A stretch of DNA of 64,000 bases, taken from sequence record MZ234025.1. One strand, 5' to 3'. Origin of the DNA: Escherichia phage vB_EcoM-172859UKE1. The translations under genes were made by a program, and so were the position numbers. The notes under the pieces were generated by a model. The model ran no database searches and was not told the DNA's origin. It was given only the letters and a program-made list of their open reading frames with translations. Shown one piece after another: positions 11,114 to 62,908 of this stretch (position 1 is the stretch's first letter; every line of letters begins with the position of its first letter).

Positions 11114-11138
11114 TGTTACCTTTTTGCCTATGGTTTTT

Positions 11139-11170: not shown

Positions 11171-11404
11171 TTAGAAGTCTTCTTCCACATCCTCATCATC
11201 GTCGCCTTCAAGTTCGGCACGCTTACCTGCTAAGGCATCCCTGACAGAAATATCATCTGTATCTTTTAATTCCGTTTCTTTTATACGTTTCTTATAATAA
11301 GCTTCCAATTCTTCAAGCCCTTCTAAGGTATGACAACTAGCAATTTTACCCATGAATTCGTCAATAGATGCTTCGTATAAAAATTGTTTAAATTCAAGTA
11401 CCAT
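11171..11404 (-). CDS. uvsW.1: UvsW.1-like small protein
   Basis: 77 aa immediately downstream of uvsW (T4 UvsW.1 76 aa). Confidence 0.6.
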   Translation of the reverse strand: MVLEFKQFLYEASIDEFMGKIASCHTLEGLEELEAYYKKRIKETELKDTDDISVRDALAGKRAELEGDDDEDVEEDF

Positions 11405-12994: not shown

Positions 12995-13663
12995 ATGATC
13001 GATAAAGACTATATTGAAGAGTTACGTGCTCTTTCTGATAAAAAGGAAGCCAAAGCTAAACTGTTTGAATATGCGGAACAATTTGGCATTAGTGTTAAGA
13101 AAACAAAATCATTCGATAATATTGTTATTGATATCGAAGAAGCTCTTAACGCACTGGCTGATGAACCATTACCTGAAACTGATGGATTATCTATCACTGA
13201 TTTAATTACTGCCGCAGACGATGTGGACGGTGTTAATTTCACCAACGAAGAAGTTAAAGAAGAAGCTATTCTGTTGTTTGATTCTCCAACAGAACAAGTT
13301 GAAGTATTAGAAGTTGTCGAACAAGAAAAAGAATTCGACCATGATAAATTCGAAGAAGCAATTACTCAGGTTGTTGAATCTGAAAAAGAGCCTGAGTCAG
13401 AGGTAAATAAAGAAGTAAAATTTGTTCTGCCTGAAAATTTTAGTCCTACGCTCATTAAATTAGGCAAAGGCCTAGGATATGTTACTGTTCCTTGGTGGAT
13501 TTATCAATGGATAGCCGAAACCCCAGATTGGAAATCTCGCCCAACTAGTTTTGTGCATGCTTCTGCTCACCAAACATTATTTAGCTTAATTTATTATATT
13601 AATCGCGATGGATCAGTTCTAATTCGTGAAACTCGTAATTCTTCTTTCGTAACATTAAAATAA
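12995..13663 (+). CDS. inh: acidic protein, possible Inh (prohead protease inhibitor) homolog
   Basis: 222 aa (T4 Inh 226), position between uvsW and hoc; assignment by synteny and size only. Confidence 0.5.
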   Translation: MIDKDYIEELRALSDKKEAKAKLFEYAEQFGISVKKTKSFDNIVIDIEEALNALADEPLPETDGLSITDLITAADDVDGVNFTNEEVKEEAILLFDSPTEQVEVLEVVEQEKEFDHDKFEEAITQVVESEKEPESEVNKEVKFVLPENFSPTLIKLGKGLGYVTVPWWIYQWIAETPDWKSRPTSFVHASAHQTLFSLIYYINRDGSVLIRETRNSSFVTLK

Positions 13664-13672
13664 GGATAACTT

Positions 13673-15090
13673 ATGGCTTTTACAGTTGATATAACTCCTA
13701 AAACACCTACTGGAGTTATAGATCAGACTCAGCAGTTTACTGCTACACCCAGTGGTCAAACTGGAGATGGACCTATTACATATGCTTGGACTGTAGATGA
13801 TGTTCCACAAGATGGAGCTGAAGCAACTTTTAGTTATGTACTAAAAGGACCTGCCGGTCAAAAGACTATTAAAGTAGTTGCAACAAACCCAGTCCTAGAC
13901 GCTGAAGCTGAAACAGCAGAAGCTACTACAACTATCACAGTTCAAAATAAGACACAAACGACCACCTTAGCTGTAACTCCTAATAGCCCTGACGCTGGAG
14001 TAATTGGAACAGCTATTGAATTTACTGCTACTTTAGCTTCGCAGCCATCGGGCGCAAACGCTACTTATCAATGGTATGTAGATGATTCTCCTGTGGGCGA
14101 AGCAACTAACGCTACGTTCAATTACACTCCTGCCGAAAGCGGGGTAAAAAGAATTAAGTGTGTGGCTCAAGTAACTGCGACAGATTATGATGCACTAAGC
14201 GTTACTTCTAATGAAGTATCACTGACTGTTAATAAAAAGACACAGACAACTACTTTGGCAGTAACTCCCGATAGTCCTTCAGCTGGAGTAATTGGAACCC
14301 CAGTTCAATTTACTGCTGCCTTAGCTTCTCAACCAGTTGGAGCGTCTGCTACGTATCAGTGGTATGTAGATGATTCACAAGTTGGTGGAGAAACTAACTC
14401 TACATTTAGCTATACTCCAACTACAAGTGGAGTTAAAAAATTAAATGCGTAGCCCAAGTAACCGCGGCAGATTATGATGCAAAGGAAGTTACTTCTAATG
14501 AAGTATCATTAACGGTTAATAAGAAGACAATGAATCCACAGGTTACATTGACTCCTCCTTCTATTAACGTTCAGCAAGATGCTTCAGCTACATTTACCGC
14601 TAATGTCACTGATGCTCCAGAAGAAGCGCAAATTGCGTATTCATGGAAGAAAGATTCTTCTCCTGTAGAAGGATCAACTAATGTATATACCGTTGATACC
14701 TCATCTATTGGAAGTCAAACTATTGAAGTTACTGCAACTGTTACTGCTACTGATTATGATAGCAAAACTATTACAGCAGAAGGTCAAGTTCAGGTAACTG
14801 ATAAAGTTGCTCCAGAACCAGAAGGTGAATTACCTTATGTTCATCCTCTTCCACATCGTACTTCAGCTTACATCTGGTGCGGTTGGTGGGTTATGGATGA
14901 AATCCAAAAAATGACTGAAGAAGGTAAAGATTGGAAAACTGAAGATCCAGATAGTAAATACTACCTGCATCGTTACACTCTTCAGAAGATGATGAAAGAC
15001 TACCCAGAAGTTGATGTTCAAGAATCACGTAATGGATACATCATCCATAAAACTGCTTTGGAAACTGGTATCATCTATACATATCCATAA
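13673..15090 (+). CDS. hoc: Hoc-like capsid decoration protein, Ig-like repeats, frame interrupted in A6 run (ORFs 13673..14452 and 14530..15090)
   Basis: N-terminal Ig-like repeats and C-terminal ...YLHRYTLQKMMKDYPEVDVQESRNGYIIHKTALETGIIYTYP recognised as Hoc; one-base frame difference at 14435-14440. Confidence 0.8.
13947..14517 (+). repeat. tandem duplication of an Ig-like domain coding unit inside hoc (13947..14230 and 14231..14517)
   Basis: Two consecutive about 285-nt units encoding NK(K)TQTTTLAVTP...ATYQWYVDDS...SNEVSLTV. Confidence 0.8.
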
Positions 15091-15094
15091 TTGT

Positions 15095-15123
15095 AAGGGG
15101 CTTCGGCCCCTTTCTTCGTTTTT
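15095..15123 (+). terminator. rho-independent terminator (GGGGC-TTCG-GCCCC + T-rich)
   Basis: Hairpin plus TTTCTTCGTTTTT after hoc. Confidence 0.6.
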
Positions 15124-18486: not shown

Positions 18487-20055
18487 TTAGATGCCTTTTA
18501 CATATACACGTCTAAAGTAAGCGTTCTTACCAAGGCTGTTCAGGATAGACGGCATACCGGACTGGATGCGAGCACCTGGAGCCTGCAGGGAACTTTCAGC
18601 AAACGGGTTAACACCGATACCGTAACGAGTTTTAAAGCCCATTACCGGCTGGAAGTTCTTAGGATCGGAACCACGCAGTGGGGTAAGTGCAACGTAAGGA
18701 GCATAGTAAATACCTGCATCCATTTCGTTAGCGCCTTTGTAACCAACGGTGAAGTAATCCTGTTTAGCATACTGGTCGATGTATACGCGGTATTTACCGC
18801 CAAGTACACCGGCAAATACAGACTTAGTAGTGTCGGTATTAAAACCAGAAGCCAGACCCTGTGCAGCGTAAGAAATACCAGTATCAACTGAAGCCAGTAC
18901 GTTAACTACGTTACGGGAAGCGATAATGAAGTTACCTTCACCACGACCGGTTTGACGAGCAATTTCAACTGCTTCTTTATCAATCTGGAACAACAGAGCT
19001 TTAAAGCTTTCACCGGCCCAACGAGCACCACGGATATCAATCGGGTCCTGGAAGTCGAATACACCAGCTTTAGAACCAACGATATTAGTCATACCAGATT
19101 TACCAACCTGAGCGGAGTAGTTAATCCAGTCAACAACTTCACGGTTGATTTCCAGCATAATTTCAGTAGCAAGAATACCACTCAGTTCAGCATCAGCATC
19201 CATACCGTGTACTGCACGGAGGTCTTGTGCCAATTCGATGGAGTAAGCTGCTTTCAGCTGACGAGATTTAGCTTCAATAACTTGTTTGTCGATACGGAAG
19301 CCCATTTCGTTCCACGGGTTGTCGGTAGAACCATTGAAGCCTTCCTGAAGTTCAGCGATAGAAGTAGCCATACCTTCAGCGATTTCTACCAGTACACCTG
19401 CTTCCATTTGTTTGATAATTTCTGCATCCAGCAATTCTGGGGTAGAAGCCTCAGCGCTAATGGTAACAACTTTAGTGGCCTGAAGATAAGTAGAACCAGT
19501 TTCAGCGAAGAAGTGATAATAAATGTCGCCGGCTACAGTGGACATACCAGCGGTAACAGGAGCAAATGCTTTTGCAGCACCCTGACCAGAGAACATCGCA
19601 TCTGGAGCATACATCGGATGGAAAGCTTCTTTAGCGTCAGCAGCGATAGGGTCTTTACCATATACTGCACGGAGAGCAAATACCTGACCGGTAGGGCTGT
19701 TCATAGGCTGAACACCACAAATATCAAAAGCGATCAGATTAGGAATAGCACGACGAACCATACCCATAACTGCCGGCCCAATTTGGGTTACTGCACCAGA
19801 GGTTTGACCTGCTGCGATGTTCTGAGCATTATAACCGTGGTCACCACCAATTTCAGCTTCGGTCAAGAAAGAACCAAATGCCTGAGCGATTTTCTCGTCT
19901 TTATATTCAGGGGATACTTCGAAATCTTTTTCCTGGTTTTCGAAGATTTTAGCGATAATAGCCTGCTTGCTATTAGCGATTTCCGGCAGGCCTTCACCTT
20001 CCAGCAGTTCTTTCCATTTGTCTACGAGCTGAGCTTTAGTTTTGATAGTAGTCAT
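18487..20055 (-). CDS. 23: major capsid protein gp23
   Basis: 522 aa; near-identical to recalled T4 gp23 along whole length (MT[TI]KTKA...RRVYVKGI). Confidence 0.95.
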   Translation of the reverse strand: MTTIKTKAQLVDKWKELLEGEGLPEIANSKQAIIAKIFENQEKDFEVSPEYKDEKIAQAFGSFLTEAEIGGDHGYNAQNIAAGQTSGAVTQIGPAVMGMVRRAIPNLIAFDICGVQPMNSPTGQVFALRAVYGKDPIAADAKEAFHPMYAPDAMFSGQGAAKAFAPVTAGMSTVAGDIYYHFFAETGSTYLQATKVVTISAEASTPELLDAEIIKQMEAGVLVEIAEGMATSIAELQEGFNGSTDNPWNEMGFRIDKQVIEAKSRQLKAAYSIELAQDLRAVHGMDADAELSGILATEIMLEINREVVDWINYSAQVGKSGMTNIVGSKAGVFDFQDPIDIRGARWAGESFKALLFQIDKEAVEIARQTGRGEGNFIIASRNVVNVLASVDTGISYAAQGLASGFNTDTTKSVFAGVLGGKYRVYIDQYAKQDYFTVGYKGANEMDAGIYYAPYVALTPLRGSDPKNFQPVMGFKTRYGIGVNPFAESSLQAPGARIQSGMPSILNSLGKNAYFRRVYVKGI

Positions 20056-20072
20056 TTGTGTTAACCTTTAAA

Positions 20073-29690: not shown

Positions 29691-30455
29691 TTAATTCATA
29701 AACCCATCGTCAAATGGTGAATTTTGTCTACCACGGTTGTTAACTACTACATACGGCTCAACGTATTCACTTGCCTCTGAATTGATTTGCTCAACTTCAG
29801 AATATTCATCGATATTAATGTCATGGATACCGTCAAGATTTCTAACAGGGTTAAGTTCCAAGTCACTAAATTCAGGTATATTGATACCTTCATTTTTCTG
29901 AAGCACCGGATTGATTTCTTCGCCAGAGTAAATAAACTTGCCTGCAGTAATTTTACGAATCGCATTTTTACCTACTTGATAGAATGGGTCATATGGTTCA
30001 ACCCAGTTAATCTCAAACAAACTGTTGTCCATTGGGAAGTATATTAAATCACCTTCCTTGGGCTCCTGATTGTTGACCTGGTGTTTGAAAAGACCCGGGT
30101 TAATAGATAATGTAACTTCGTCTTGAACTTGCATTCCGAAGTTGCTGAAGAACGATTTCGCTCCTTCATAACCTTCAAATGAGTTCAGATATGCCGCAAA
30201 TTTCCATGCTTTAGTAAATTTATTTTTAAGGTCCTCACCAAAGATAAGGTCCACAGCAACATATTCACGTGGAACATAAAAACATTCAATACCGCGCATT
30301 TGTATGCTTTCTGCCACTAGAACATCGGCTAATGTCTGACTATTCTCATAATTATTAAAATTGACAAATGGATTGAGGATTTCGGTCTCATTTGTCTGAG
30401 AATACCCACCACGATTTTCTAGCTTGGCGAAAAGATTTTTATCATAAGTTGCCAT
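29691..30455 (-). CDS. 14: neck protein gp14
   Basis: 254 aa (T4 256). Confidence 0.85.
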
Positions 30456-30456
30456 A

Positions 30457-31383
30457 TTAACCTACCAAAATACCTGCAGGAGGGTCCAGTAAATATAACT
30501 CTTCTCGTAAAGCTTCTTTCTCTAAACGAGCTTCTTCAATTAATCGAACACCATCAACAGTGACGCCACCCGGTAACATCATACCTTGATGTTTAGCAAG
30601 AATTTGTCCATTAAGCTCTTTAGCTAATGCAGTTGCATAATCTTTAACCCAGCGGTTGTTATATGCGCCTTGTTTGGTTGCAGGATCTTCACCAACTCGA
30701 CGTCCGACCAAATTATGGTCTGGATTATCATAACGTTCAGAAATAGACCATGAATCACGAGGACCGACCTGTCCATACCCTACTGTATTTCCTACCATCT
30801 TATGGGTCTCGATATAAGAGCGAACATACGATTCAACGATAATGACATCTTTCTGTCTAAAGTTACCCATTACTTTTAATTGCTCGTTTGCAGAGTTAAA
30901 CCAAAAATCTGGAAGAGGAGCAATCATATCTTGAAGCATACCCATATAAGATACTAATTGAGAATAATACCCGAGGTCAGCGCCAAAAGCGTTCGGGCCG
31001 TAGAATTTACCACAATTACTACCCATACCACCTGAAACACCAGCCATTCCTAAAAGGAAATCAGTGAACCATGGATAAGTTGCATTACCATCCATTGAAG
31101 TAATAGAGCCAACATTTGTTCTTATAATTCTTGTTACAGCAAATACGTTAGAACCGCGCATATCAAATACGCCATGACGGTATTTTTCTTCGTCATCAAC
31201 AAAAAATACATGGAAACCTTTATTCAACCCGTCAAAATGGTATTCGCCATAAAGTTCTAACGCTCGTGAAATACAATCATAAATTTGGTCTGTAGTTAAT
31301 TCAACATTTACAATAGGAGCGCCTAAACGACGTAATATTACGTCCTTTAATTCTTTAGGGTTTTGTGCATTATAACCTGACAT
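30457..31383 (-). CDS. 13: neck protein gp13
   Basis: 308 aa (T4 309). Confidence 0.85.
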
Positions 31384-52421: not shown

Positions 52422-52496
52422 GGCCCTGTAGCTCAATGGGAGAGCTGTCAGCTCATAACTGATAGGTAGCTGGATCGAAACCAGCCAGGGTCACCA
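52422..52496 (+). tRNA. tRNA, anticodon CAU (Met, or Ile if C34 is modified), CCA encoded
   Basis: Manual cloverleaf: acceptor GGCCCTG/CAGGGTC, D-stem GCTC/GAGC, anticodon loop CTCATAA, T-stem GCTGG/CCAGC, 75 nt. Confidence 0.8.
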
Positions 52497-52499
52497 ATC

Positions 52500-52576
<77 letters not shown>

Positions 52577-53278: not shown

Positions 53279-53323
53279 GGCATAATAATAAATAGATAAG
53301 TTAATTAACTTAGGAAAAGCAAC

Positions 53324-53788
53324 ATGAAATCATACGCTGAATTTTTGACTGAACAATCTAGTTCAGATGTAAAAGCCGCTGCGATTGCAGCAATTCAAGC
53401 AGGTAAATATTCTTACAAAGACGCCTCTGATGAAGAACGTTTCCGTTTTATTAGAGATTTTAAAGCCGAAGGTTTTACTAATGCTAATACTGTTAGCCGA
53501 GTTTTTAAAAGCCTAGCTGCATCAGGTGAATTGTTCCAGAAAGCTACAGGTAAAGCACCTGCGCCAAAAACAGACCCTAAAGCAGCTCAAGAAAAAAATA
53601 TCGCCAAAGGAATTATTTCTAAGTATGAAGCAATTCTTAAAGAGCTTTTAGTAATCAAAACAGAAGGCCAGAAACTGGCACGAGCACATAGCTTCAAAGA
53701 TAATCCTCACGCTCATAGCCTTGAGTATGTTGAAGATATCCAAAAACTTATTAAAGACCGTATCTGGTCTGCTAAACAAATTAAATAA
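53324..53788 (+). CDS. internal-protein-like protein with CTS-like N-terminus (MKSYAEFLTEQ..)
   Basis: 154 aa; N-terminus resembles the capsid targeting sequence with an L-x-E site. Confidence 0.5.
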   Translation: MKSYAEFLTEQSSSDVKAAAIAAIQAGKYSYKDASDEERFRFIRDFKAEGFTNANTVSRVFKSLAASGELFQKATGKAPAPKTDPKAAQEKNIAKGIISKYEAILKELLVIKTEGQKLARAHSFKDNPHAHSLEYVEDIQKLIKDRIWSAKQIK

Positions 53789-53794
53789 TAGAAT

Positions 53795-53823
53795 GCCCCT
53801 TCCTTATGGTTGGGGCCTTTTGG
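53795..53823 (+). terminator. rho-independent terminator (GCCCCTTCC..GGTTGGGGC + TTTTGG)
   Basis: Hairpin plus T-run after the 53324 gene. Confidence 0.55.
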
Positions 53824-53854
53824 TATCTAGGGCATAAAAATATTTCATAAAGAT

Positions 53855-62791: not shown

Positions 62792-62908
62792 ATGAAAATG
62801 TATCAAGAATTTATCATTGAAGCAGATGCCAAAGGTCCTAAAGTAGATGTTGACGATATTGGATACGATTTTAACAACTTCGGAATTATTTCTGGCGGTA
62901 AAGCTTAA
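62792..62908 (+). CDS. mini internal-protein-like ORF (38 aa) with CTS-like start MKMYQEFIIE
   Basis: ATG 62792 with GGAAAA SD; below track cutoff; could be a remnant. Confidence 0.35.
   Translation: MKMYQEFIIEADAKGPKVDVDDIGYDFNNFGIISGGKA

What the first reader, a model, noticed from the sequence alone, without database searches (positions are those of the whole stretch)
13673..15090. hoc has an extra Ig-like domain and a frame break in an A6 homopolymer
ORFs 13673..14452 and 14530..15090 together encode a Hoc-like capsid decoration protein; the C-terminal tail is the capsid-binding part as I recall it from T4. The Ig-like unit NK(K)TQTTTLAVTP...SNEVSLTV is present twice in tandem (13947..14230, 14231..14517), one more domain than T4 Hoc (about 472 aa if read through, vs 376). 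The frame breaks in the second copy: copy 1 reads GTA AAA AGA ATT AAG TGT (VKRIKC), copy 2 reads GTT AAA AAA TTA AAT GCG TAG; one extra A in the run at 14435..14440 restores ..VKKIKCVAQVTAADYD.. in frame with the downstream ORF. As written, the product is a 259-aa Ig-only protein without the capsid anchor. This is either a homopolymer sequencing error, a genuine inactivation, or a slippage-prone on/off switch for surface display.
Basis: partly seen in the sequence, partly recalled or inferred. Interest (0 to 1): 0.7.

Follow-up and report, generated by a model that had tools for sequence, protein, structure and literature searches.

The report
Frameshifted hoc capsid-decoration gene
This T4-like coliphage carries a four-Ig-domain version of the dispensable head-decoration gene hoc that is broken by loss of one A from a run of seven; the loss is most likely a real mutation at a spot where hoc has broken repeatedly in other T-even phages, including classical T6, so the phage probably has a bare, Hoc-less head.

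Summary
ORFs 13673..14452 and 14530..15090 are the two halves of hoc. Adding one A to the A6 run at 14435-14440 restores a 472-aa Hoc, which is T4 Hoc (376 aa) plus a tandem copy of Ig domain 2.

The extra domain is ordinary. Forms of 376, 472 and 568 aa are all common in relatives.

The window is Escherichia phage vB_EcoM-172859UKE1 (Mosigvirus). It was sequenced on Illumina MiSeq and assembled with SPAdes, and both fragments are already annotated in GenBank. Hoc is the only conserved gene truncated in the 64 kb, and the other 1-nt indels against the closest genome are all intergenic.

The same codons, SGV-K-K/R-I-K-C of the domain-2-type repeat, are frameshifted in at least seven other lineages or sites:
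- NHEP10 has A8.
- 101117BS1 and its progeny have A6.
- UPWr_E2 has A6.
- ECCR664 has a -1 change.
- FriedrichMiescher has G4 to G5.
- PM105 has a +1 change.
- Phage T6 has a +1 change, identical in two separately deposited records.

Best reading (about 0.65): a genuine, recent A7-to-A6 slippage mutation in a dispensable gene, giving a Hoc-null stock. Sequencing error (about 0.15) and a functional switch or recoding site (about 0.1) remain open without reads or virion protein data. There is no canonical slippery heptamer, no stimulatory RNA structure and no conservation of the broken state.

The parts
12995..13663 (+). inh (inhibitor of prohead protease), the upstream neighbour of hoc as in T4
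   Evidence: 222-aa ORF. The exact protein is named 'inhibitor of prohead protease' in phage 172859UKE1. The gene order matches T4 and moskry.
13673..14452 (+). hoc 5' fragment: Ig domain 1, Ig domain 2 copy 1 and about two thirds of copy 2, then 3 out-of-frame codons and a stop (259 aa)
   Evidence: ORF. phrog_1149 'Hoc-like head decoration', E 6e-59. Equals QZI80110.1. Aligns to T4 Hoc.
13947..14230 (+). Ig-like repeat copy 1 (domain-2 type)
   Evidence: Direct repeat families D1 and D2, spacing 288. PKD and Ig Pfam hits.
14145..14156 (+). Homologous site in copy 1, GTA AAA AGA ATT. The A-run is interrupted by G and the site is in frame.
   Evidence: Sequence. In other phages this site carries A7 (48 records) or a frameshifted A6 (101117BS1, PM107, PM108, UPWr_E2).
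14231..14517 (+). Ig-like repeat copy 2 (domain-2 type), containing the frame break
   Evidence: Direct repeats, with spacing changing from 288 to 287 across the A-run.
14435..14440 (+). A6 homopolymer, one base short of the in-frame A7 allele
   Evidence: A7 in mobillu, BEU50 and ECO111 5-P; A8 in NHEP10; AAAAAGA (with GTA) in T4, moskry and hundreds of others.
14450..14452 (+). Premature TAG stop reached in the shifted frame
14441..15090 (+). hoc 3' part in the restored frame: rest of copy 2, the last Ig domain and the C-terminal domain. It contains the 186-aa ORF 14530..15090.
   Evidence: The frame is open from the A-run to the stop. phrog_1149 E 4e-78. Equals QZI80111.1. Synonymous to non-synonymous changes 12:3 against mobillu.
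14800..15087 (+). C-terminal capsid-binding domain (equivalent to T4 Hoc residues 281-376)
   Evidence: Alignment offset of 96 residues to T4 Hoc. Domain boundaries and function from PMC10385173.
15095..15112 (+). Terminator-like hairpin followed by a T-run, after hoc

Best explanation
The hoc gene of this Mosigvirus isolate (vB_EcoM-172859UKE1) carries a genuine, recent -1 frameshift. Its ancestor had the in-frame allele GTT AAA AAA ATT (A7), as in mobillu. One A was lost by replication slippage (Streisinger-type misalignment in a monotonic run). Translation from the hoc start now ends after 259 residues at TAG 14450-14452.

The product has two complete Ig-like domains and a truncated third. 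[quoted passage not shown]

Hoc is dispensable for growth, so the mutation is neutral in culture and could be fixed by plaque purification. The same dozen nucleotides in each domain-2-type repeat are a recurrent frameshift hot spot in T-even phages.

Shown here: the sequence state, the homology, the hot-spot recurrence, and the cleanliness of the rest of the assembly. Inferred: that the reads really say A6, and that the virions lack Hoc.
For: 1. Platform and assembly quality.
- The genome was sequenced on Illumina MiSeq 2x300 and assembled with SPAdes (PMC8614997). Consensus homopolymer errors at 6-7 bases are rare on that platform (general knowledge).
- Against the closest genome, moskry (98% identical), hoc is the only conserved annotated gene truncated in 64 kb.
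- The four other isolated single-base changes in short A or T runs (11126, 16760, 51173, 54412) all lie between genes. That pattern is expected of selection-filtered real mutations, not of random base-calling errors in a largely coding genome.

2. The A6 allele appears in a second assembly.
- PM105, from the same study, carries a 466-nt stretch (window 14270-14735) identical to the window, A6 included. It is the only exact stretch of 120 nt or more in 50 kb that is otherwise 74-80% identical.

3. Frameshifts at this site are demonstrably real elsewhere.
- T6 has a +1 change (GTTAAAAAGAATT against T4 GTAAAAAGAATT) that is identical in two separately deposited records, AP018814.1 and MH550421.1.
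- The A6 of 101117BS1 at the copy-1 site is inherited by its bred progeny PM107 and PM108, which are separate GenBank records.

4. The site is a hot spot.
- Further events at it or within 3 nt: NHEP10 A8, UPWr_E2 A6, ECCR664 -1, FriedrichMiescher G4 to G5.
- At the copy-2 site, uninterrupted-run alleles are A7 in 3 records, A6 in 2 (the window and PM105) and A8 in 1. Only 1 frameshift (ECCR664) was identified among the 60 rows listed out of 547 matching records, most of which carry the G-interrupted allele.
- A rough Fisher test gives p = 3e-6, with a denominator of about 520 estimated's record count. It is not corrected for relatedness or for the window-PM105 link.

5. The run was the longest homopolymer in the gene, and A7 or T7 runs are rare in the window (four in 64 kb).

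6. Hoc null mutants are fully viable (PMC3012670).
Against: - No raw reads are available. No other assembly of this phage was seen: its exact Inh protein is listed from NCBI only, on one contig. The base call itself therefore cannot be checked.
- PM105 comes from the same laboratory, and 172859UKE1 was not a declared parent of the breeding mix. The shared segment could reflect cross-contamination of stocks or libraries rather than an independent observation.
- Everything downstream of the break is intact, with mostly synonymous differences from relatives. That fits a very recent mutation but fits a simple error equally well.
- Several of the other broken records are of unknown or low quality. 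ECCR664 is a 134-kb 'complete' genome.
Confidence: 0.65

Rival explanations
1. Sequencing or assembly artefact: the phage really has A7 and an intact 472-aa hoc, and one A was lost in consensus calling or in assembly of the tandem repeat.
For: - The break is a single-base change in a homopolymer, the classic error mode.
- The downstream frame is perfectly preserved.
- The closest hoc, in mobillu, is identical over the 91 nt around the site except for having A7.
- Nextera libraries involve 13 PCR cycles.
Against: - Illumina MiSeq data assembled with SPAdes rarely miscall A7 in a consensus (general knowledge).
- No other conserved gene in 64 kb is frameshifted, and the other 1-nt indels are intergenic.
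- The two repeat copies are only 73-82% identical, so repeat collapse is unlikely.
- The same A6 segment is present in PM105.
- Equivalent frameshifts are reproduced in separate records for T6 and for the 101117BS1 lineage.
Confidence: 0.15
2. Functional switch or recoding. Either the A-run is a contingency tract that reversibly toggles Hoc display in the population (A6, A7, A8), or the A6 allele still yields some full-length Hoc. Full-length Hoc could arise by -1 P-site slippage of tRNA-Lys on AAA AAA, or by transcriptional slippage. A one-Ig 'mini-Hoc' might also be made from the internal start at 14530.
For: - Tract lengths of 6, 7 and 8 are all seen at the same site in different isolates.
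- A -1 slip on the second AAA would read AUU and regenerate exactly ...VKKIKC....
- The downstream ORF encodes one Ig domain plus the capsid-binding domain. That architecture exists naturally: the PG7 233-residue Hoc (PMC10385173).
- An AAGAAG purine stretch lies 4 nt upstream of the ATG at 14530.
- Ig-like domains in phages are sometimes attached through programmed frameshifts (Fraser et al. 2006, cited; content from my own knowledge).
Against: - The zero-frame heptamer is U AAA AAA, not the canonical X XXY YYZ.
- There is no stable structure downstream (z = -0.63).
- The broken arrangement is not conserved. The great majority of relatives have one continuous ORF, and most carry a G-interrupted, non-slippery allele.
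- In the A7 alleles seen here the preceding valine codon is GTT rather than GTA, which keeps the run at 7.
- Six A's are too few for efficient RNA polymerase slippage (general knowledge).
- No within-population length variation could be examined.
Confidence: 0.1
3. Mixed stock: the sequenced lysate contained both A6 and A7 genomes, and the consensus happened to report A6.
For: Slippage at A-runs is frequent in T4 replication (Streisinger and Owen 1985, from my own knowledge). Neutral variants can reach appreciable frequency in unselected lysates.
Against: Isolates were plaque-derived, and no ambiguity is recorded in the deposited sequence. This cannot be assessed without reads.
Confidence: 0.1

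Closest known systems
Bacteriophage T4 Hoc (highly immunogenic outer capsid protein; NP_049793.1; PDB 5VF3 chain Z)
   Same: - Same locus between inh and the 24.3/24.2/rnlB genes.
- 78% identity over the whole T4 protein.
[quoted passage not shown]
   Different: - Four Ig-like domains rather than three, through tandem duplication of domain 2.
- The reading frame is broken 31 codons before the end of the third Ig-like domain, so the anchor is not translated with the Ig string.
hoc of classical phage T6 (AP018814.1, NC_054907.1, MH550421.1)
   Same: - hoc is split by a single-base frameshift at the very same codons (SGV-K-R-I-K-C) of the domain-2 repeat.
- The frameshift is identical in two separately deposited records.
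   Different: - T6 has the three-Ig form.
- Its change is +1 (GTTAAAAAGAATT), not -1 in a pure A-run.
Spontaneous frameshift hot spots at A-runs in T4 (rII and lysozyme genes; Streisinger slippage model)
   Same: - Changes of plus or minus one base in a monotonic run of A.
- Recurrent at the same run in independent lineages.
- More frequent in the uninterrupted A7 allele than in the G-interrupted allele.
   Different: - Those hot spots were defined by genetics in the laboratory. Here the evidence is comparative, from deposited genomes.
- No mutation rate was measured.
Homopolymeric-tract phase variation (contingency loci) of surface proteins
   Same: - A coding homopolymer whose length differs by one base between isolates.
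- The length switches a surface-exposed, immunogenic, adhesin-like protein on or off.
   Different: - No evidence of within-population switching.
- No evidence of selection maintaining the tract.
- No evidence of reversion.
- Most relatives lack the pure tract altogether.
Hoc domain-number variants (for example PhiPNJ-9 Hoc lacking domain 3; Muldoon Hoc with 10 Ig domains)
   Same: Modular gain and loss of 96-residue Ig units. Forms of 376, 472 and 568-570 aa, and in-frame deletion forms of 283-341 aa, occur among close relatives (PMC11853027; PMC10385173).
   Different: Those variants are in frame and functional. The window's four-Ig form is additionally frameshifted.

Membership tests
Hoc (T4-type head outer capsid decoration protein) | Sequence homology to T4 Hoc over both the Ig-like domains and the C-terminal domain | tested here: met
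   BLASTP: 78% identity over T4 residues 2-376. phrog_1149 for both fragments. PDB 5vf3_Z, E 1e-219.
Hoc (T4-type head outer capsid decoration protein) | [quoted passage not shown] | tested here: met
   Window 14800-15087 aligns almost identically to the T4 C-terminus. Domain definition from PMC10385173.
Hoc (T4-type head outer capsid decoration protein) | Genomic position downstream of inh and upstream of the 24.3/24.2/rnlB genes | tested here: met
Hoc (T4-type head outer capsid decoration protein) | One continuous ORF joining the Ig string to the capsid anchor | tested here: not met
   The frame breaks at A6 14435-14440, with a stop at 14450-14452.
Hoc (T4-type head outer capsid decoration protein) | Protein present at gp23 hexamer centres on the virion | not testable with these tools
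   Needs virion proteomics or cryo-EM.
Programmed -1 ribosomal frameshift site | Canonical X XXY YYZ slippery heptamer in the zero frame | tested here: not met
   The zero frame is GUU AAA AAA UUA, so the heptamer is U AAA AAA. Only single-tRNA slippage would be possible.
Programmed -1 ribosomal frameshift site | Stimulatory downstream hairpin or pseudoknot | tested here: not met
   The 90 nt downstream fold at -14.2 kcal/mol, z = -0.63 against shuffles.
Programmed -1 ribosomal frameshift site | Two-frame arrangement conserved among relatives | tested here: not met
   Relatives have single 1419-nt or 1131-nt ORFs. Most carry a non-slippery allele.
Homopolymeric-tract contingency (phase-variation) locus | Coding homopolymer whose length variants put the gene in or out of frame | tested here: met
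   A6 (window, PM105), A7 (mobillu, BEU50, ECO111 5-P) and A8 (NHEP10) at the same site.
Homopolymeric-tract contingency (phase-variation) locus | Length heterogeneity and reversion within one strain or population | not testable with these tools
   No reads or population data are available.
Homopolymeric-tract contingency (phase-variation) locus | Tract maintained by selection across the lineage | tested here: not met
   Only about 6 records (counting the window) carry an uninterrupted run at the copy-2 site, against 547 records matching that site. The listed rest have GTA AAA AGA.
Streisinger-type replication-slippage frameshift hot spot | Recurrent changes of plus or minus one base in a monotonic run, in independent lineages, more often in longer runs | tested here: met
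   About eight events at or next to the site in hoc repeats. Frameshifts are enriched in uninterrupted-run alleles (rough Fisher p = 3e-6). UPWr_E2 and 101117BS1 differ at 9% of hoc positions, arguing for independent events.

The most novel reading that the evidence does not exclude
The codons for SGV-K-K/R-I-K-C in each domain-2-type Ig repeat of hoc act as a natural, reversible on/off (or dimmer) switch for capsid decoration in T-even phages.

- Slippage between A6, A7 and A8 toggles display of the immunogenic, mucus-binding Hoc fibre.
- Off-state genomes may keep low-level full-length Hoc through -1 slippage, or a one-Ig mini-Hoc from the internal start.
- Populations would thereby hedge between adherent and immunogenic particles and bare ones.

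The recurrence of breaks at this one spot, including in T6, would then reflect selection as well as mutational bias.
Probability: 0.1. Interest if true: 0.7.

Novelty: new member of a known kind. Interest (0 to 1): 0.35.

Why it matters
Hoc is the protein behind the 'bacteriophage adherence to mucus' model. It is also the main display scaffold for T4 nanoparticle vaccines and a major determinant of phage immunogenicity.

This phage was isolated for therapy of urinary-tract infections. Whether it carries Hoc therefore bears on its behaviour on mucosal surfaces and on its clearance.

More generally, a small fraction of deposited T-even genomes, including T6, have hoc broken at one and the same short sequence.
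- Natural hoc-plus and hoc-minus pairs therefore exist for testing what Hoc does outside the laboratory.
- Annotators should treat split hoc genes as possible real alleles rather than silently repairing or ignoring them.

If the A6 is only a sequencing error, the finding has no biological weight.

Tried and rejected
- Exact-word megablast with a 38-nt A7 probe returned nothing because of the low-complexity filter. I switched to 58-61-nt blastn probes.
- IMG/VR pattern and protein scans and the single metagenome scan found few close relatives. No uninterrupted-run allele was seen among those checked. The one metagenome hit, L034, gave no match to my follow-up pattern and was not examined further.
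- The exact look-up of the 259-aa product among assemblies found no contig. The cluster look-up identified the source record.
REP4's hoc match lies at bases 108-284 of the record and is unannotated there, so I did not count it as a frameshift.
- The C-terminal Hoc 'fragments' of 283, 292 and 341 aa turned out to be in-frame domain deletions that keep the true N-terminus, not frameshifts.
- Literature searches for hoc frameshifts or truncations returned nothing specific. The Sathaliyawala 2010 paper is not held.
- A programmed frameshift was considered and rejected. There is no canonical heptamer, no downstream structure and no conservation.
- Repeat-collapse misassembly was considered and rejected, because the two copies are only 73-82% identical.
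- A general low-quality assembly was considered and rejected.
Full report
**What is there**

The window is part of Escherichia phage vB_EcoM-172859UKE1.
- It is a Mosigvirus of 168,667 bp, accession MZ234025, isolated from wastewater on a uropathogenic E. coli strain.
- Its Inh protein and both hoc fragments match that record exactly: QZI80109.1, QZI80110.1 and QZI80111.1 (Table 1 of PMC8614997).
- The record itself is not in the phage collection searched. The best genome-wide matches are moskry, vB_Eco_F31 and vB_EQ1 at about 98%.

- An ORF at 13673..14452 encodes 259 aa and ends ...TSGVKKLNA*. A second ORF at 14530..15090 encodes 186 aa.
- A 288-nt unit is present twice in tandem. The two halves of the repeat show 73% and 82% nucleotide identity.
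- The repeat spacing drops from 288 to 287 exactly across the run AAAAAA at 14435-14440.
- Copy 1 reads GTA AAA AGA ATT AAG TGT. Copy 2 reads GTT AAA AAA TTA AAT GCG TAG.
- Adding one A gives an uninterrupted 472-codon frame.

**It is hoc**

- The repaired protein aligns with all of T4 Hoc (376 aa) at 78% identity. Its first 190 residues also align with the first 190 of T4. It is therefore T4 Hoc plus a second copy of Ig domain 2.
- Both fragments hit the PHROG family 'Hoc-like head decoration'.
- Pfam finds PKD and Ig domains.
- The only strong PDB match is T4 Hoc, 5vf3 chain Z, E 1e-219.
- The gene lies between inh and the 24.3/24.2/rnlB genes, as in T4 and moskry. A terminator-like hairpin follows at 15095-15112.
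- T4 Hoc residues 281-376 form the conserved capsid-binding domain (PMC10385173). They correspond to window 14800-15087, wholly downstream of the break. The 259-aa product therefore has no anchor, and its third Ig domain is cut short.

**The extra domain is ordinary**

- Protein searches return large clusters of 472-aa Hoc, with representatives standing for 58-167 member sequences. Many 376-aa forms and several 568-570-aa forms also appear.
- In-frame deletion forms of 283, 292 and 341 aa occur too.
- Thirty-seven of the 40 closest phage records span the full four-Ig length in a single piece.
- Variation in the number of Hoc Ig domains is already published (PMC11853027; PMC10385173).

**Is the frame break real?**

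No reads are available, so this rests on indirect evidence.

First, the platform. The genome was sequenced on Illumina MiSeq 2x300 and assembled with SPAdes. That platform does not have the homopolymer problem of pyrosequencing, Ion Torrent or Nanopore (general knowledge).

Second, the rest of the assembly is clean.
- Aligned to moskry, the window has 37 gap events. Most lie in divergent patches with compensating gaps, in a 3-bp T-run difference at 2868, a 3-bp repeat difference at 11202, or in non-coding stretches.
- The isolated single-base changes in short A or T runs are at 11126, 14439 (hoc), 16760, 51173 and 54412.
- Mapped onto moskry's annotation, all but the hoc one fall between genes.
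- An ORF-by-ORF comparison shows hoc as the only conserved annotated gene truncated in the window. The other flagged cases are spurious antisense ORFs, genes absent from one genome, or locus edges.
- Random errors would fall mostly in coding sequence. This distribution looks like mutations filtered by selection, with hoc tolerated because it is dispensable. [quoted passage not shown]

Third, the A6 allele appears in a second genome.
- vB_EcoM-PM105 is a bred Tequatrovirus from the same study. Its hoc is a mosaic.
- It matches its parent CHD16UKE1 up to the copy-1 A-run. It then matches the window perfectly for 466 nt (14270-14735), including A6, and then returns to parental type.
- That is the only exact stretch of 120 nt or more between the two genomes in 50 kb that is otherwise 74-80% identical.
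- 172859UKE1 was not one of the four declared parents. The patch may be real recombination with a contaminating phage, or cross-contamination of libraries. It supports A6 but is not fully independent evidence.

**A recurrent hot spot**

While checking relatives I found that the same codons of the domain-2-type repeat, SGV-K-K/R-I-K-C, are broken repeatedly.

In-frame alleles:
- GTA AAA AGA ATT in T4, moskry and most of the records listed.
- GTT AAA AAA ATT or ATC (A7). At the copy-2 site this is carried by mobillu, BEU50 and ECO111 5-P. At the copy-1 site, 48 records match the exact 61-mer.

Frameshifted states:

| Phage | Site | State |
|---|---|---|
| Window | copy 2 | A6 |
| PM105 | copy 2 | A6, same segment as the window |
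| NHEP10 (India) | copy 2 | A8, gene annotated in two parts |
| 101117BS1, with progeny PM107 and PM108 | copy 1 | A6 |
| UPWr_E2 | copy 1 | A6 |
| PM105 | copy 1 | GTTAAAAAGAATT, +1 at the mosaic junction |
| ECCR664 | domain-2 site | GTAAAAGAATT, -1 |
| FriedrichMiescher (BASEL collection) | 3 nt upstream of the copy-2 A-run | G4 to G5, +1, annotated 'Hoc part 1/part 2' |
| T6 | domain 2 | GTTAAAAAGAATT, +1 against T4 |

- UPWr_E2's hoc differs from that of 101117BS1 at 129 of 1418 positions, so the two A6 events may be independent.
- The T6 frameshift is identical in two separately deposited records, AP018814.1 and MH550421.1, so it is not a one-off error.
- The A6 of 101117BS1 recurs in the separate records of its progeny PM107 and PM108.
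- The list of C-terminal Hoc fragments returned by the cluster look-up was not chosen by me. Every frameshift-type fragment I could examine maps to this site: 186, 221, 240 and 278 aa. The 283, 292 and 341-aa members are in-frame deletions. REP4 could not be resolved.
- At the copy-2 site, uninterrupted-run alleles are in frame in three records and out of frame in three (two if PM105 is not counted separately). Among the 60 rows listed out of 547 matching records, only one other frameshift (ECCR664) was identified.
- A rough Fisher test gives p = 3e-6. Its denominator of about 520 was estimated's record count, and the test is not corrected for relatedness.
- The A7 run is the longest homopolymer in the gene. 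It is one of very few runs of that length in the region: two A7 and two T7 in the window's 64 kb.

This is the behaviour expected of Streisinger-type slippage hot spots. They were first defined in T4 itself, at A-runs of the rII and lysozyme genes (established knowledge, not retrieved here). Such breaks are visible in hoc because the gene is dispensable.

**Mechanism and rivals**

The best-supported account is a genuine, recent A7-to-A6 deletion.
- It yields a hoc-null or strongly Hoc-depleted stock.
- 'Recent' follows because the frame downstream is completely open and differs from relatives mainly by synonymous changes: 12:3 against mobillu, and 10:5 against moskry.
- I give this about 0.65.

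A plain consensus error remains possible at about 0.15. It would look identical in the sequence.

A functional reading gets about 0.1. This covers a phase-variable tract, or recoding that still produces Hoc.
- For it: tract lengths of 6, 7 and 8 all occur.
- For it: a -1 P-site slip on the second AAA would regenerate the exact wild-type peptide.
- For it: the downstream ORF has the architecture of natural one-Ig Hoc proteins.
- Against it: the heptamer is not canonical.
- Against it: there is no downstream structure (z = -0.63).
- Against it: the broken arrangement is not conserved, and most relatives carry a G-interrupted allele that cannot slip.
- A mixed stock is a further possibility that only reads can address.

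**Comparison with known systems**

- The gene is a member of the Hoc family by sequence, domain architecture and synteny. It fails the 'single continuous ORF' criterion, so it is a frameshifted allele or pseudogene of a known gene.
- It behaves like the classical T4 A-run frameshift hot spots. It resembles bacterial contingency loci only superficially.
- It is not a programmed frameshift site by any of the three criteria tested.
- The closest specific precedent is T6, whose hoc is split at the same codons.

**Novelty and score**

- The split is already annotated in GenBank, hoc is known to be dispensable, and domain-number variation is published. The finding in the window is a new member of a known kind.
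- I could not find any description of recurrent hoc breaks at one short sequence across laboratories, T6 included.
- That recurrence is a modestly interesting by-product. It offers natural hoc-plus and hoc-minus comparisons, and it matters for therapeutic phages whose mucosal behaviour depends on Hoc.
- Interest 0.35.

Noticed in passing
window 14155-14735, against L009/L040 (PM105, MZ234041.1, 114324-115252): The bred phage PM105 has a hoc mosaic. Its middle matches this window perfectly for 466 nt (14270-14735, A6 included) and closely from about 14155. The left junction sits in the copy-1 A-run and is 1 nt out of register. Yet 172859UKE1 was not among the four declared parents of the breeding mix. 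This suggests an undeclared parent, a contaminating phage, or cross-sample reads in that study.
   Followed up: partly
L043 (T6, AP018814.1, 106703-107834) and MH550421.1 107284-107464: Classical phage T6 has hoc split by a +1 frameshift (GTTAAAAAGAATT against T4 GTAAAAAGAATT) at the same codons. The sequence is identical in two separately deposited T6 records. In one of them hoc is simply not annotated under the match.
   Followed up: yes
L038 (101117BS1), L036 (PM107), L042 (UPWr_E2), L041 (FriedrichMiescher), L004 (NHEP10), L010 (ECCR664): Six further phage records have hoc frameshifted at or within 3 nt of the homologous site in one of the Ig repeats (A6, A8, -1, and G4 to G5). Together these make a recurrent hot spot that I did not find described in the literature searched.
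   Followed up: yes
P0010, P0012, P0016 and P0033-P0040: Hoc also varies by whole or partial Ig units in frame. Forms of 283, 292 and 341 aa keep the true N-terminus, and 568-570-aa forms carry five Ig domains. This is consistent with unequal recombination between the 288-nt repeats.
   Followed up: partly
window 30448-30457 (junction of the 254-aa and 308-aa ORFs on the minus strand): The closest genome, moskry, has a 211-aa 'putative endonuclease' gene inserted between the two neck-protein genes. The window lacks it, and its two genes abut directly.
   Followed up: partly
window 19078-19495 (minus-strand major capsid protein gene, about 18489-20057): A roughly 400-nt patch of the major capsid protein gene is much more divergent from moskry than its surroundings. 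It contains several compensating small indels, yet the ORF stays intact. It looks like a mosaic patch in gp23.
   Followed up: no
window 53299-53849 and 62792-62908: These are variable regions relative to moskry. A 210-aa hypothetical gene of moskry has no counterpart, and a small gene near 62.8 kb is replaced or diverged. tRNA-Met (52422-52496) and tRNA-Arg (52500-52576) lie just upstream, and the tRNA-Met sequence differs from moskry's around 52441.
   Followed up: partly
window 14432-14443, and the homologous sites in L001, L035 and L004: In every uninterrupted-run allele seen (K-K, AAA AAA), the preceding valine codon is GTT. In the G-interrupted alleles it is GTA (T4, moskry, vB_EQ1) or GTT (101117BS1 and FriedrichMiescher, copy 2). 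GTA before AAA AAA A would make an A8 run, so this pairing keeps the run at 7. The sample is too small and too related to say whether this is selection.
   Followed up: no
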